DNA of 64,000 bases. Source: Octopus sinensis (Eukaryota). Within the stretch, counting starts at the first letter, position 1, and each line of letters begins with the position of its first letter. Shown piece by piece: positions 1,584 to 52,957 of the stretch. The notes beneath the pieces are model-generated. The model had not been told where the DNA came from. It was given only the letters and a program-made list of their open reading frames with translations, and did not search any database. The stretch is taken from positions 99,944,001 through 100,008,000 of the forward strand of contig NC_042999.1 of the NCBI RefSeq assembly GCF_006345805.1. Direction: 5' to 3'. A program made the position numbers and the translations under genes.

Positions 1584-4500
1584 TGCAAAACTAGCACACA
1601 CGAACTTTAAATTTGAGGTGATGTCATGTGCTAACCCTTTGAGCTAGTACTTTCAACAATAGTTTCAAATGCCTATCATACTAGAAATGTTTATGAGATA
1701 ATCTTATCTAGTGACTGTAAATTATTAAATAGATCAAAGATTCTGGCTGCAAATTGTAAGATGTTCTATAATCAAATGCTCCAAGACGAGAATCTGAAAT
1801 CCAGTTTTGATCGCAGTACTTTGCTCTAATTGTACCCTTACAGTAAGAGACAACTTGATTGTTAATAGTCAGAAAGTAAATACTGACAATTATTTTAACA
1901 GTTTTATTTACCTGTACGTTTTGTATCTTCTTCGAGTACATATACATAAGCTCTGAGCTTAACACTAGTAACAGTATTGTTTAATGACGTTGATTAAAGG
2001 TTAATCATGGAATACACAAACCAACAGTGCTTTTGATGTATTGAAATATAATTTCTATACACGTAAAGCAGTATTTTTTCTTAAAATCTCGATAATGAAT
2101 GGGAATTGTTTTGTTTCTGTGCCAAGATATCATTGACAAAGAAACCACGCCGACTGAATAAACACTTATTCAAAAGTTAATTATTATAACGAATGAGTAG
2201 TGTCCGCTAGTTAAACAAATGTGTTATGCTGTGTTTTTTTGTGAGTTTTGTTTTTTCTTTTTATGATGTCTACATTAAAAGAATATGGAGGAAAGATTAT
2301 CGCTGGATAGTCTACTTAGTATCTAACGAACTATGTAAGAGAAAGTAACTGCGAAATATAACACCGAAACAAAATACCGTACAATTAAGCTAAGCCAAAT
2401 CTAGTAGTTACTCTAGAATACTACTTATTAATCAATCATCAATTATATATAATTTAAAATAACCCATAAAATGTTTTAGAAGTTGAAAAGGAGAAAGAAA
2501 CTAAACATTTCATAATATAAAAGCAGGGAAAATAACTGACGAGTAACGAAATTGTGACATTCCACATGAATTTATAAAGTTCCTTTTTCCACGTAAAGAT
2601 TATATGGCCGAGCGAATAAAGCACTGCATTATTAAATGATAAAGTTCCAATCATGATATAAAATCCTCGAAAAATGTCTCTTGCCGTATTTCTATCAATA
2701 CTAGGGTAACCAATCTGTCGATAAGAGATATATACACGATTATATGGAATGTACACTTTGAGACTGGAACCTATTAATTTTTTTTCGTTCTAGCAAGTCT
2801 TTGGATCCAGAGTGTGAGTCTTAGTTGTATACAGTATGTAATGGACAGCATAATATTTAGCCAAGTGGATTTACTTTCCGGCTGCAACAGTCTCCTAATC
2901 GAACTTCCTCATACGTGTTCAATTCTTAATATAGTCACTTCTATGTATGAATAGTATTTTAGAGACCAGTGAACGCTAAAAATGACAAAAGTGTTTTAAA
3001 TCATTAAGACTAAAAAGGATTAGTATATGTATGTTAGGATACTACACTGAACGAACTATTTCAGATTTATGTTCCATATACAATCGCTTAGTTTTGCTAG
3101 AACACTGATTGCCTGATCAAAGTAAAAACATAAATATATATGTCATGTAAGAGAGAATAAATGAACCTTACTTTGCAGTTTTCTCTGATTATTCTACAAG
3201 TTTGCACTAATAATTTGGAAAAGAAAGGAATCTTTATTTCATTTAACTAGATGAAAAATACGTTAGTTCGTCTCATTCACAAGCGTTGCATTTATGATTT
3301 AGTAGTTATATATGGTGTGACTTGTTAAGCAAGTACGTTATAATATTTTTATGCAATATTTTTGGTCACAAATGGGAAATTGCTCCAAGATGTTAAATTG
3401 TCAGCTATATATCTAATAAAATCTGCATTAAAGTCGTGTAATATATGGCTACTTGGGAAATGCAGCTTACAAACATAACTACATATGTCAATAAATATAC
3501 GAGTTGCTCTTTATATGCAAACAAAGAAATTAATACCGAGAAACTTCAACACCCTGAAATCAAACTAATCACAATGCAGTCATTGTTTGAACATATATCT
3601 CCCTCGAGTGACATTTAAACGTGTTCAAAGTAGAAGAACACATCAAATAGTTTAGTTCTATATATACAAAAGACAGGATTGTTATAGCGGAAACAGTTCC
3701 GACCAAAGATCTTGATCAGAGCAGTCGTGAAGCAGAAGAATAGTTGCAACATCATATTCGCATGCAGCTTTCATCCTTATACTTAAACCATAGTGCACCC
3801 TGATTACTTAAGCTATTTGGATGTGATTAATTATACATGATTTGAAAGTTGGAAACAAAAGCAATGTCCACAATCTTGTGGCGTGTGTTAATATGTTCTT
3901 CACACTGTAGAGAAAATAGTAAAGTAGACCACAACATTGAAAAAGTATGAAATTACTTGAAGACGTTTGTATTGAATAGGTCCTCTGAGCTATTAATTTT
4001 AGAGGAATGAATTGAAAAGAATGATTAGGTGAAACGGTTAAAATATCAATTCAGCTCATTCAATAAATATGACTAATGTCAGTTTTATGATAAGGTTATA
4101 ACAAATTGATTGTGAATAGTGAGAGATTATCTTAATTCATTAATGATGAGCTGTTAACTTATGATAGATTCTAGAATGTATCGTACAGCAATATAATCAG
4201 TATGCATTGTGTGAGTATTAGATCTAACTGCATGTTGGAAAAGATCTGACACATGCGAATGTGTATCATATTGTAAGAGATCATTGGTGAAACAATGGAT
4301 GCTAATTTCAGTCAATTGCTCTACAAGGGACAATTATTTACCATATAATTATCAAAACCAAATGTGCACTTCCATAGAAACTCGCAAATGTAAGCATGTA
4401 CATTTTCAGTAAATTTTCTTCGTAGCTACCATACTCTGCCGTCATTACATCCGTTCAAGGAGAAGCCAGTCTCATAATTTATATATTTTACACAAGTATC

Positions 4501-6049: not shown

Positions 6050-6940
<891 letters not shown>

Positions 6941-7247
6941 AAATACAGCGGCGTACGTACACTTTGGTCTCTCATTTATATATAAATATATATATACATA
7001 TATTATATATATATATATATATATACATATTTATATATATATACATATATATATATATATTATATATATATATATATTATATATATATATATGTATATAC
7101 ACACACATATATGTATATATATGTACATCCTCGTGTTTGTTCTTATCGTTACTCCTATTCTTTTTCTGCCCTTTTTTAAAAAGACAAACACACTGTATCT
7201 ATCGTTAACTGTTTCTTATATGTATTAGCTCTCCCAACCACTTAGAC

Positions 7248-7768: not shown

Positions 7769-8365
7769 TTTTCCTTGGGGCTGGCCAGATTGGAGCAATC
7801 TCAAGATTAATCAGCCGAAATTGCGAGGATGATCCGGTTCTTGACTGAAGACTAGAGGCTTCGAATGACCCGACCGTGTTTTTTGTATCGTCTATTTGAA
7901 TGTTTTGCGTTCTTTTTTGTATTTATATATATCTAAACTTTGTACTATTCCAACACTCTCTCCCCCTCTCTCCCATTCTTTGCCTTTCTTACTTTGTACT
8001 TCACTGTCCTTGTCTTTCTCTTTTCTCGCCAATCCTTGATTCATCGGTCTACTCTCTCCCCCTTCTCTCACATTCTTTGCTCTTCTTACTTTGCACTTCA
8101 CTCTCCCTGTCTTTCTTTTTTCTCGCCACTCATTGACACGCTCTCTATCTTCTCCCCCTTCTTAATTCCTTGTTCCTCTTTTTCTGTCTCTTCTCCTCCT
8201 CCTTAATACCTTTGTTCCTCTTTTTCTCCCTCCTCTCCCACTCTTTAATTCCTTTGTCCCTCTTTTTCTCTCTCTTCTCTTCTCACGTGACAGCTGGACA
8301 ACTAAAGCCCTTTCGCTTCGGACCAACGTCACGATAAAAACGCTTTCTTTGTCTGCCGTAAGGCC

Positions 8366-8451
<86 letters not shown>

Positions 8452-8743
8452 GTTTTTTGCATTTATATTCGTATTATTTTTTATTATTTTTTTGTATTTA
8501 TATTCGTCCGTTTTTCTGTCCTTGTTTCGTATACATTCGATCCTTTTTCCAAGAAATCTAATGCTCGTAGCTTAGCTTTTCCTTGGGGCTGGCCAGATTG
8601 GAGCAATCTCAAGATTAATCAGCTGAAATTGCGAGGATGATCCGGTTCTTGACTGAAGAATAAAGGCTTCGAATGACCCGTCCGTGTTTTTAGTATCGTC
8701 TATTTGAATGTTTTGCGTTCTTTTTTGTATTTATATATATCTA

Positions 8744-8746
<3 letters not shown>
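7769..8746 (+). mobile_element. Non-coding element with ~170-bp terminal direct repeats (subfamily A), inserted in (TA)n
   Basis: 7769-7938 and 8577-8746 are near-identical direct repeats (offset 808 bp). They enclose a CT-rich tract and a (TTA)n run, and both flanks are (TA)n. Confidence 0.75.
8534..8675 (+). ncRNA. Candidate rearranged (non-circularly permuted) hammerhead ribozyme
   Basis: GCAATC(8603-08) pairs with GAA-ATTGC(8625-32); TCAAGA(8609-14) pairs with TCTTGA(8647-52), which directly precedes CTGAAGA(8653-59); GGCTGG(8587-92) pairs with TCAGCT(8619-24). A second copy is at 7779-7851 and a diverged copy at 6791-6863. Confidence 0.6.
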
Positions 8747-50207: not shown

Positions 50208-50703
50208 GGAGTGAGCTGGCAGAAACGTTAGCACGCCGGACGAAATGCGTAGCCCTATTTCGTCTGCCGTTACGTTCTGAGTGCAAATTCCGCCGAGGTC
50301 GACTTTGCCTTTCATCCTTTCGGGGTCGATTAAATAAGTACCAGTTACACACTGGAGTCGATATAATCGACTTAATCCGTTTGTCTGTCCTTGTTTGTCC
50401 TCTCTGTGTTTAGCCCCTTGTGGGTAGTAAAGAAATAGGTATTTTGTCTGCCGCTATGTTCTGAGTTCAAATTCCGCCGAGATCGACTTTGCCTTTCATC
50501 CTTTCGGGGTCAATTAAATAAGTACCAGTTACGGACTGGGGTCGATATAATTGACTTAATCCGTTTGTCTGTCCTTGTTTGTCCTCTCTGTGTTTAGCCC
50601 CTTGTGGGTAGTAAAGAAATAGGTATTTCGTCCGTCTTTACGTTCTGAGTTCAAATTCCGACGAGGTCGACTTTGCCTTTCATCCTTTCGGGGTCAATTA
50701 AAT
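50208..50703 (+). mobile_element. tRNA-derived SINE family C with ~2.4 tandem 184-bp internal units
   Basis: Head GAGCTGGCAGAAACGTTAGC and B-box-like GAGTTCAAATTCC. Units start at 50256, 50440 and 50624, each with GTCGACTTTGCCTTTCATCCTTTCGGGGTC (resembling the Deu/Nin conserved SINE domain). Confidence 0.85.
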
Positions 50704-52957
50704 ACATGGAGCATCTATGAATGGCCCTCACCACATTTCGGTATTGTATGCTATACCAATCCCGGAAGTAGTCTTCATTTCATTGTCACGTTTATTTTTT
50801 TATTGTTATTTAAAACAGGACCGCATCACAACTTTTTAATATCTAGTCAACCTAACAGTTTTCTACGTGCAATGGATGTAACAGTATCCAAAATCACCTG
50901 GATAACTTAATATCTGCGATTCCTGACAAGTCAACATCATGACAAGAAACGCACCAAAAATGACGTACTGTTGCAGCAGTAACTGACGTATGGACATAGC
51001 TACAACTCTTTAGACGGAATTAATTAAATAAAAAAAATAGGCATACAGATGTGTATATAAGTATGTGTGTGTGTATATGTATGCATACGCCCAAGCATCC
51101 AAATAAGTGAGGGTAATTGTTCAGGAATGTATACATATATGTATGAATATGTGTGTGTATGTACACACTAATGTGCGTGTGCGCGCAAGCGTATTGTTTT
51201 GTTAAAATGTTAAATCTAGTAGTCATCATAAAATTTGATTTGAAAAATAAGGAGATGCAAATGAATAATAACTATATATTTTACAAGAGAATTTCGGCCT
51301 CGATCCGAAATAGGTTGTATGTCATAAACGAAAATGACTCGAAGAAATCTTTTATTACAACTGATTAATTTGTGAAATTAATTAGAACCAAATCTTCACT
51401 AATAACCTGAATTCTTTAGAAAGCAAAACTTCCACAGTAAGAAAGAGAATTCTAGCACAAACTCAAAAGTACGTACACATACTCACTGCACACGCAAATA
51501 GGTGTACTGCGATATAACATTTCCATGTATATTCTTGCATAATGAACTGGAGCCATAAAACGACAGTGTCTATACTAAATACGTTGAAGGCAAGTCAAAT
51601 GGTATGTAAAATCACTCTCGAACAATTAGTACACCTGATCACTTTTACTAACCGTTGCTCTACGCGTGGTGTTCAAAGAACAGTCAGTTAAATTCTAAAA
51701 GCAAGATGTAATCTAATTGTACTTGTTAGAATATTTCTCCTAGCCATATCATAATGATTGAGCACATCAATATTCTCAATCGAGTCAGCCTTTACAAGGG
51801 ACTCAACTTGCTAGAAATAACAACTGAAATATTCATCAAATTTAACTGTACGAGCTCTTAAAAATGACTTGACCGTCACAGTTGGAACACATTTGGTTAT
51901 TCAAGGCTTGCCTGGGGTTAAAAAAAACCAACAAAAATGGCAAAACAAAGCTAGTGTTTTATTGGTGATGGATATCGTCGATTAAACCGATCTCTACTAT
52001 ATAATTCATCGAACCCAAATGAATGAAGGCAAAAATCGATCCATGTGGTATTTGAACAGAATCGGAAAGGATTCTGTGTACTATTTAACAGCATTTAACC
52101 CGATGCAACACTTTCACAGACGTTTCTGTCTTTGTCATTTATATGCGATTTTCAAAAAGTAAATCAGCTACACCTATAAATGAATTGAATTTTCACATCG
52201 TAGCAATCAATAATGCTCTTTGCCAAATTGTGTTTTATGGGAAAGGTTTATGTGGATAAGATCCTAAGTTAAAACTGGAAGGAAACAATTTCCTAGTTTA
52301 AACAATTGAGTTAGTGTAATAAAATTCATAGAAATTTAATCTGTCCACTACAGTTTATATAACGACCAATAGGTGGATATGGTATGATTCCTTTTATTGA
52401 AAAGCAATGGTAAATAACATCTCAGTGTTTTGCACACTGATCATTCTCGTAACATACTTTTACTTTGTTGATGAACAAACTCTCAATTTTATTGGCAATT
52501 TCTCCAGGAAGTCCTGTGAATTGTTTAATAGGCAAGGGCAGAAAAGAATTTAGACTATAGATTTTGTAAATTCGACATCATTTTCAAAAGACGCTGCTTC
52601 TACTGATGGCCATTATTCTGTAATTATTCGGATGTTTATAGTAAATACTTATTAACGGAATTTAACGTGGCTTTATATTATTTCTTCTAGAAGCGATAAA
52701 TAATAAATGAGAATTAGAAAGGGATACTATTTTTTTCAACTGAAGGATTATTGATCGTATAAAGGCTTATTACCACTGGTCTAGCGTTTAGATTTACATC
52801 AAATACATTAATTTACTGAATCTCGTTTTCTACATTTACAAGTGACCTGTAAATCAAGAACACGTATTTTTTTCCACGTGCAATTAAGAACTAATGCTTG
52901 CAGCTATTCGTCATTATTAGTATCCTGAATTTATTATCCAAGAATATATGTATTATC

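What the first reader, a model, noticed from the sequence alone, without database searches (positions are those of the whole stretch)
8534..8675. Hammerhead core assembled in a non-circular strand order and braced by a kink-turn
Seen in sequence: all conserved hammerhead elements are in correct local register. The AUC cleavage triplet is in GCAATC (8603-08). Stem III is GCAAT/ATTGC after GAA. Stem I is TCAAGA/TCTTGA directly before CTGAAGA. Stem II is GGCTGG/TCAGCY before GAAA, with the canonical G10.1-C11.1 pair in the 7779-7851 copy. Established: types I-III have cyclic order [NUH]->[CUGANGA]->[GAAA]. Here the order is [stem II 5']->[NUH]->[GAAA]->[CUGANGA], which is a pseudoknot. Also seen: a 4-nt linker (TTAA) joins the tip of stem I to the tip of stem II. 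Stem III continues through GGA / GAG-GA-T, which matches the k-turn consensus (C-G pair, 3-nt bulge, tandem G.A/A.G), into helix CCAGATT/GATCCGG. The flanks pair (CATTCGA-T-CCTTT with AAAGG-CT-TCGAATG, plus hairpin CCAAGAAA/TTTCCTTGG) and close the break between A9 and G10.1. Inference: the linker replaces the usual loop I-loop II contact and the k-turn folds the extra helix back. That would give a self-cleaving RNA that standard hammerhead searches miss. I recall that non-circularly permuted hammerheads have been reported in other animals, so the novelty of this exact topology must be checked.
Basis: partly seen in the sequence, partly recalled or inferred. Interest (0 to 1): 0.9.

Follow-up and report, generated by a model that had tools for sequence, protein, structure and literature searches.

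The report
Rewired hammerhead ribozyme in animal retroelements
This repeat encodes a predicted self-cutting "hammerhead" RNA wired in an order I could not find described, and the same wiring sits in the tails of a group of animal jumping genes reported to lack such RNAs; cutting itself has not yet been tested.

Summary
All hammerhead core elements are present in the non-circular order S-G-C (Eckert 2023), but the supposedly unbreakable CUGAnGA block is split at A9/G10.1 and closed by a four-way junction. The motif lies in a ~780-810-nt non-coding tandem repeat (retrozyme-like, in TA microsatellites) with 3,698 intact-core copies in this genome. Across 11 families in the genome, 299 of 308 predicted pairs form and 27 of 28 positions show double changes. 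The same fold sits in the 3' tail of Naiad Penelope-like elements: in this genome, in 10 of 54 published Naiad consensi from five phyla (by eye), and in 11 of 80 metagenomic Naiad-like loci. Five more of those 80 have order C-S-G and none is canonical. Naiads were reported to lack canonical hammerheads. The k-turn is real here but lineage-specific. No cleavage or RNA evidence exists, and both intact-looking window copies are imperfect. The scan earlier noted related cases on other DNA (core-opened phage hammerhead, permuted hammerheads in Penelope-like elements, twisters in other Naiads). Verdict: new variant of a known kind.

The parts
8534..8546 (+). Pa 5' strand; pairs with 8662-8675 and closes the break after A9 (2x2 mismatch layer at the junction, 8547-48 with 8660-61)
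   Evidence: Pa paired 53/55, 5/5 positions with double changes across 11 families
8549..8586 (+). Pb hairpin, ending directly before G10.1; fourth arm of the junction
   Evidence: Pb paired 44/44, 4/4 double changes
8587..8592 (+). Stem II 5' strand (G10.1 = 8587), displaced upstream of the cleavage site
   Evidence: stem II paired 55/55, 4/5 double changes, 10.1-11.1 G-C in 11 of 11 families; 4 of 6 pairs with double changes
8593..8599 (+). P4 5' strand (equivalent in position to the 'I' helix of type-SGC/CSG ribozymes); pairs with 8639-8645
   Evidence: 51/55 paired, 5/5 double changes; Eckert text
8600..8602 (+). k-turn non-bulged strand (3n, 2n, 1n)
   Evidence: tandem G.A/A.G kept in 10 of 11 families; k-turn nomenclature recalled
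8603..8608 (+). Stem III 3' strand, U16.1 and C17; predicted cut 3' of 8608
   Evidence: stem III 43/44 paired, 4/4 double changes; triplets AUC, AUA, GUA, GUC, GUU
8609..8618 (+). Stem I 3' strand and 4-nt linker joining the tips of stems I and II
   Evidence: stem I 53/55 paired, 5/5 double changes; linker 1-4 nt in the 11 metagenomic split examples
8619..8632 (+). Block G: stem II 3' strand (this copy has U11.1 at 8624), GAAA 8625-28, stem III 5' strand
8633..8645 (+). k-turn bulged strand (3-nt bulge, G, A, U) and P4 3' strand
   Evidence: bulge varies freely (GAG, AAA, UAA, GAA, UAU, AGU, AUG) while GA is fixed
8647..8659 (+). Stem I 5' strand and CUGAAGA core (Block C without its stem II strand)
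   Evidence: N7 is A, G, U or C across families
8662..8675 (+). Pa 3' strand
7769..7867 (+). Second ribozyme copy, intact core (C17 = 7800, core 7845-51), 5'-truncated inside Pb
   Evidence: 96% identical to the 8534 copy over 124 nt; descriptor hit
7769..8746 (+). Whole insertion: partial unit, one full 808-nt non-coding monomer (7801-8608) and a 138-nt tail, between TA runs
   Evidence: period 808; homologous in pieces (74-89%) to the 777-nt young monomer
6737..6875 (+). Older copy of subfamily B with a decayed core and stem I; part of a second array (about 6050-6990)

Best explanation
A self-cleaving hammerhead ribozyme with cyclic order S-G-C whose chain is opened between A9 and G10.1, inside Block C. 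A four-way junction (Pa, Pb, stem II, core) holds the break. It is the processing signal of a non-coding, non-autonomous Penelope-like retroelement (retrozyme) related in fold to the 3' tail of Naiad elements. Shown: the structure by covariation, the tandem array anatomy, and the same fold behind Naiad reverse transcriptases. Inferred steps: (1) an array is transcribed and each unit cuts 3' of nucleotide 17, giving a ~780-810-nt monomer. (2) The two ends of a monomer stay paired through about 30 bp (stems II, III, P4, Pa), far more than the single stem I of a type I hammerhead, which should favour re-joining into a circle. (3) A Penelope-like EN/RT acting in trans nicks (TA)n and starts reverse transcription internally, ~140-150 nt after the cut site, and runs round the template to give arrays with a fixed 3' end and a variable 5' end.
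For: Covariation in all six helices across 11 families, strand swap 0/5000 each. On 32 ungapped copies 92.3% of 768 cells pair, 15 of 24 pairs have double changes, slid controls 15-43%. Subfamilies A and B were found without selecting for the core and differ by compensatory changes in stem I and Pa. Variation follows hammerhead rules (N7 free, H never G; rules recalled). 3,698 intact-core matches, reversed control 0. 9 of 10 fetched arrays end 151-152 nt after the cut site with variable 5' truncation; inverted 5' copies occur. 5 of 12 RT loci in this genome carry the fold downstream on the same strand; their homologues have an N-terminal GIY-YIG, i.e. Naiad. 16 of 17 metagenomic Naiad-like tails with a CUGAnGA are permuted, 0 canonical. 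Two of these (L425, L429, near-duplicates) have both junction helices capped as hairpins between A9 and G10.1. SGC and CSG ribozymes cleave in vitro (PMC10085705).
Against: No cleavage data. No run on record as RNA holds the repeat, and contigs cannot show ends. Eckert assumed that insertions over 1-2 nt at this position do not occur, and a 2-nt core insertion elsewhere strongly slowed a natural hammerhead (PMC3088659). Helix registers were chosen by best pairing, families are related, two entries (H1, G1) are single copies found by a pairing descriptor, and families D, E, E2, N and N2 were seeded by patterns containing core letters. In one search the count of further pair types did not exceed the shuffles (347/500). 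Nested folding gives z -1.28 to +1.40 and does not recover the whole fold. No blastn similarity between the monomer and Naiad tails, and Naiad RTs here are decayed (longest frame 320 aa among the top hits), so the mobiliser of the young subfamily is not identified. Circularisation is not shown.
Confidence: 0.85

Rival explanations
1. Ordinary type SGC with an insertion: stem II is formed by the GGCU 5 nt downstream of A9, not by the upstream strand, so Block C stays contiguous.
For: A 4-bp run at offset 5 exists in 5 of 11 families (A, A2, C, D, H1); N and G1 have runs at other offsets.
Against: Absent in B, E, E2 and N2. Those bases belong to the covarying Pa. The upstream strand pairs 55/55 with double changes, and does so in 11 metagenomic loci.
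Confidence: 0.04
2. The fold is real but is now a recognition or packaging structure for the retroelement protein, a hammerhead-derived scaffold that cuts poorly or only with protein or as a dimer.
For: Arrays with up to three ribozyme copies were inserted in one piece, which an uncut linear multimer could also template. Tested SGC/CSG ribozymes are slow, 0.004-0.19 per min. Minimal PLE hammerheads cleaving as dimers are cited by title in the Eckert supplement.
Against: Catalytic letters, NUH and the G10.1-C11.1 pair are retained while all stems turn over, across five phyla. A binding scaffold would not be expected to keep exactly these.
Confidence: 0.09
3. Chance arrangement in a neutral repeat, amplified by copying.
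For: Copies decay neutrally, and copy number alone shows nothing.
Against: Shuffle and letter controls; compensatory changes between families; same architecture with unrelated stem sequences in distant animals.
Confidence: 0.02

Closest known systems
Type-SGC and type-CSG non-circularly permuted hammerheads (Eckert et al. 2023, PMC10085705; Results and Discussion read, parts 2-6 of 8; supplement searched for six words only)
   Same: Cyclic order S-G-C, short linker joining stems I and II, an extra helix (their 'I', here P4) joining the other strands of stems I and II, intact core.
   Different: Block C is split at A9/G10.1 and closed by a four-way junction; stem III is joined to P4 on both strands, here through a k-turn; found in animal genomes at thousands of copies, whereas theirs came from metatranscriptomes, metagenomes and one bacterial candidate.
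Non-LTR retrozymes (Cervera and de la Pena 2020, PMC7229834, passages; Li, Clavereau and Pollet 2026, bioRxiv 10.64898/2026.07.22.740005, parts 1-2 of 5 plus word search)
   Same: Non-coding tandem repeat with one hammerhead per unit, short arrays, link to Penelope-like elements.
   Different: Those carry type I hammerheads by definition and by search design; neither main text names octopus or cephalopods; the monomer here is ~780-810 nt against the typical 150-450; circular RNA not shown here.
Naiad Penelope-like elements (Craig et al. 2021, PMC8557442; section 6, passages, File S1 part 1 and passages of File S5)
   Same: (TA)n targets, 5' truncation, partial tandems, inverted 5' copies; their 3' tails carry the same fold.
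   Different: The window element has no ORF and no detectable sequence similarity to the Naiad tail. The paper reports no canonical hammerhead in Naiads and lists unexplained 'HHR_core' and 'HHR_half_core' cases, several of which parse as permuted ribozymes.
Canonical hammerheads, types I-III (CGS, GSC, SCG; Rfam hammerhead families)
   Same: All conserved core nucleotides and stems I-III.
   Different: Opposite cyclic order, pseudoknotted core, no Rfam match.

Membership tests
Hammerhead ribozyme | Core CUGAnGA, GAAA and NUH | tested here: met
   3,698 intact-core matches
Hammerhead ribozyme | Stems I, II, III flanking the core, with covariation | tested here: met
Hammerhead ribozyme | Site-specific self-cleavage after position 17 | not testable with these tools
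   only contigs, no run on record as RNA
Canonical types I-III | Cyclic order C-G-S, three-way junction without pseudoknot | tested here: not met
   order is S-G-C; no Rfam hit
Type SGC (Eckert 2023) | 5'-3' order S, G, C with short I-II linker and 'I' helix | tested here: met
Type SGC (Eckert 2023) | Block C contiguous: stem II strand within 1-2 nt of CUGAnGA | tested here: not met
   pairing run of 0-1 directly after A9 in 11 of 11 families; the strand lies upstream
k-turn | C-helix pair, 3-nt bulge, tandem G.A/A.G | tested here: met
   10 of 11 families here; 0 of 11 metagenomic split examples in this register
k-turn | Kinked geometry, L7Ae-family binding | not testable with these tools
   needs experiment
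Non-LTR retrozyme | Non-coding tandem units, one hammerhead each | tested here: met
   (longest ATG frame 131 aa in a low-complexity monomer)
Non-LTR retrozyme | Type I hammerhead | tested here: not met
   permuted form; definition
Non-LTR retrozyme | Expression as monomeric circular RNA | tested here: inconclusive
Naiad PLE (autonomous) | ORF with N-terminal GIY-YIG and RT | tested here: not met
   no ORF in the window element; met by homologues of the RT lying upstream of the same fold elsewhere in the genome
PLE-mobilised element | Microsatellite target, fixed 3' end, 5' truncation, partial tandems, inverted 5' copies | tested here: met

The most novel reading that the evidence does not exclude
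A large part of the Naiad clade and its non-coding satellites use an ancient family of S-G-C hammerheads, the first widespread animal examples of non-circularly permuted RNA. The family occurs as a series of circular permutations of one pseudoknotted ring: CSG, SGC-like, and a form opened inside the catalytic block through a four-way junction that lies outside the six layouts thought possible. The wiring clamps the two ends of the cut RNA together and so builds circularisation into the ribozyme.
Probability: 0.6. Interest if true: 0.9.

Novelty: new variant of a known kind. Interest (0 to 1): 0.83.

Why it matters
It would add a hammerhead layout outside the six-permutation scheme and show that the core tolerates a helical junction at A9/G10.1. 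It would move non-circular RNA permutation from metagenomic rarities to thousands of copies in animal genomes across five phyla. It would also explain, in part, the reported absence of hammerheads in Naiad elements, making the role of self-cleavage in Penelope-like transposition directly testable. Retrozyme surveys that search only for type I hammerheads would have missed this class. A ribozyme whose products stay paired is of interest for making circular RNA.

Tried and rejected
Rfam: no match in the window, in 20 Naiad-like loci at gathering score, or any ribozyme family in 16 core-less loci at E<=1. Nested folding does not recover a doubly pseudoknotted fold; the summed energies omit pseudoknot penalties and are not evidence. 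Expression: no RNA holder listed; laying contigs of 4 runs showed a depth peak over the conserved core in all runs, including the large run of unrecorded kind, and no joints or end piles, so nothing follows. Pfam on short RT remnants of L225: no RT hit; the 320-aa frame in L349 hit RVT_1 at E 9.6e-5, below the curated cut-off. Viral contigs: no Naiad relatives; a loose pattern gave chance hits, reused as a control. Partner search: young elements with a C-terminal endonuclease also end in TA runs but show no CUGAnGA in their tails and no similarity to the monomer. Literature: searches found no description of this layout, of permuted hammerheads in Naiads, or of an octopus retrozyme; subscription journals are mostly not searched, one review (PMC3334697) was not held, and bioRxiv supplements are closed. 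A tolerated single extra nucleotide between A9 and G10.1 in a viroid hammerhead is recalled only; one search found nothing. One copy (family F, L117) was left out as too decayed to parse.

Full report
Observation. In 5'-3' order: Pa 5' strand, hairpin Pb, stem II 5' strand, P4, GGA, stem III with AUC (C17 = 8608), stem I, 4-nt linker, stem II 3' strand, GAAA, stem III 5' strand, 3-nt bulge with GA, P4', stem I', CUGAAGA, Pa 3' strand. A descriptor for this order finds the two intact window copies against 2 hits in 200 shuffles of the whole window, and 1 of 120 viral loci picked for the core letters alone. Rfam finds nothing relevant. The named copy has U at 11.1; the 7769 copy lacks the 5' strands of Pa and Pb; a third copy at 6737 is decayed.

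Topology. Eckert et al. (PMC10085705; parts 2-6 of 8 read) divide hammerheads into blocks S, G and C, assume none can be interrupted, and derive six orders. [quoted passage not shown] Here the order is S-G-C, and P4 occupies the place of their 'I' helix. But the stem II strand that should follow A9 lies upstream. A9 leads into Pa, Pa continues into Pb, and Pb ends at G10.1, so Pa, Pb, stem II and the core form a four-way junction. This is the SGC ring closed at its usual ends and reopened inside Block C.

Covariation. Searches of the own genome gave subfamily A (40 scored of 3,060 candidates), B (40 of 1,196), 3,698 exact intact-core matches with reversed control 0, and by patterns that demand double changes, further families (88 matches; 78 matches; 43 matches; 41 matches). 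For 9 family consensi (8-30 copies each) and 2 single copies, 299 of 308 predicted pairs form and 27 of 28 positions have double changes; swapping partner strands among families never reaches the observed count (0/5000 per helix). N7 takes all four bases, triplets are AUC, AUA, GUA, GUC, GUU, and G10.1-C11.1 is invariant. The junction has no unpaired base in 7 of 11 and a 2x2 mismatch layer in A, A2, C and D. The k-turn tandem G.A pairs are kept in 10 of 11 while the bulge varies. On an ungapped alignment of 32 chosen copies, 92.3% of 768 cells pair, 15 of 24 pairs show double changes (12/500 shuffles reach this), slid controls give 15-43%, and the count of further pair types is not above shuffles. 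Caveats: registers were chosen by best pairing, families are related, and several were seeded by core-containing patterns; A and B were not.

Host element. The ribozyme sits in a non-coding, pyrimidine-rich unit of 777 nt in the youngest subfamily (C, 98.7% identity to consensus) and 808 nt in the window. Of 10 regions fetched because hits lay close together, 9 are arrays of one or two full units plus a 5'-truncated unit, ending 151-152 nt after the predicted cut. Flanks are TA runs, and inverted 5' copies occur. This is the anatomy described for Penelope-like insertions (PMC8557442 section 6) and for non-LTR retrozymes, which are defined with type I hammerheads.

Link to Naiads. One pattern family matched, by eye, the 3' ends of Naiad_Obim and Naiad_Ovul in the Craig et al. 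supplement; I infer from this that the genome is an octopus. In the own genome, 5 of 12 RT loci carry this fold downstream on the same strand. The best frame (320 aa) hits RVT_1 below the cut-off; it has 38 longer homologues, and 4 of 4 scanned have an N-terminal GIY-YIG. Craig et al. report that Naiads lack canonical hammerheads and flag unexplained core matches. Reading passages of their File S5 returned by core-word searches (places 1-58 of 62 for one word, 1-19 for three others; line breaks can hide motifs; parsed by eye), I find the split form with four-way junction in 10 of 54 consensi: Beroe, Clytia-3, three near-identical Acropora, Morbakka-2, Pomphorhynchus, Darwinula-4 and two Octopus. 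Six passages from the nematode part parse as CSG with intact Block C (three named by header: Nbra-1, -2, -3). Several arthropod passages look SGC-like but I could not parse them fully.

Independent test. A descriptor for all orders found 11 split and 3 CSG on the sense strand, 89-1,021 nt after the longest ORF, and no canonical form; antisense 1 of 80, shuffles 0 of 400. Of 57 loci with at least 300 nt after the ORF, 17 have a CUGAnGA in the tail and 16 of these are permuted; L437 is unassigned and 40 have no core. Two (L425, L429, near-duplicates) are CSG with two perfect hairpins exactly between A9 and G10.1, that is, the same junction with both arms capped. So the junction is a structural feature, not merely the place where the chain ends. 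Five of the 11 split loci look related to each other. None has the k-turn in the window's register.

Mechanism. Shown: structure by covariation, array anatomy, association with Naiad RT. Inferred: cleavage after position 17 by the hammerhead mechanism; release of monomers whose ends remain paired through stems II, III, P4 and Pa (about 30 bp); re-joining to circles; internal priming by a Penelope-like EN/RT at TA repeats (internal initiation was shown for another PLE, PMC11167929, passages); rolling copying to give partial tandems. The present mobiliser is open: Naiad RTs here are decayed, while young elements with a C-terminal endonuclease and ~800-aa frames share the TA target but no sequence. 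RNA data were uninformative.

Novelty. Nine literature searches found no description of this layout or of permuted hammerheads in Naiads; coverage of subscription journals is limited. The scan's own notes, read after my analysis and unchecked, mention a phage hammerhead opened inside its core, permuted hammerheads in Penelope-like elements, a CSG example, and twisters in other Naiads. It works like a hammerhead retrozyme, fails membership of types I-III and of strict SGC, and is best filed as a new variant of a known kind.

Noticed in passing
L425 core at 2351, L429 core at 3028: CSG hammerhead with two capped hairpins between A9 and G10.1; the closed form of the four-way junction.
   Followed up: partly
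P0025-P0028, P0030, P0032, P0035-P0037; tails of L366, L367, L368, L370, L386: Naiad-like proteins carrying a ubiquitin-specific peptidase domain (PF00443); by eye the ORF continues past the RT into such a domain.
   Followed up: no
L373:3720-3786, L405:3207-3269, L406:3318-3385, L413:2319-2380: Sub-threshold SECIS matches in tails of 4 of 16 core-less Naiad-like loci; selenoprotein Naiads are described in PMC8557442.
   Followed up: no
40 of 57 loci among L358-L437: Naiad-like tails with no CUGAnGA; another ribozyme class or none. Rfam found no twister in 16 scanned.
   Followed up: partly
L045:2505-2656, L099:4395-4547, L047:1-147, L117:1474-1604 (minus strand): Further families of the same fold in this genome, met by accident; parent elements not traced.
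   Followed up: partly
L468-L472, L474: Young Penelope-like elements with C-terminal GIY-YIG and frames up to ~840 aa, ending in TA runs, without CUGAnGA in the tail; possible current mobilisers.
   Followed up: partly
PMC8557442 File S5, part 17 (spider Naiad): SGC-like hammerhead with a long insertion between stems I and II, possibly the SECIS element; by eye only.
   Followed up: no
L095: A subfamily C array in which Pb and part of Pa are deleted in successive units, hinting that such a variant was still copied.
   Followed up: no
window 50256-50704: 184-nt tandem of a common SINE-like repeat of this genome.
   Followed up: no
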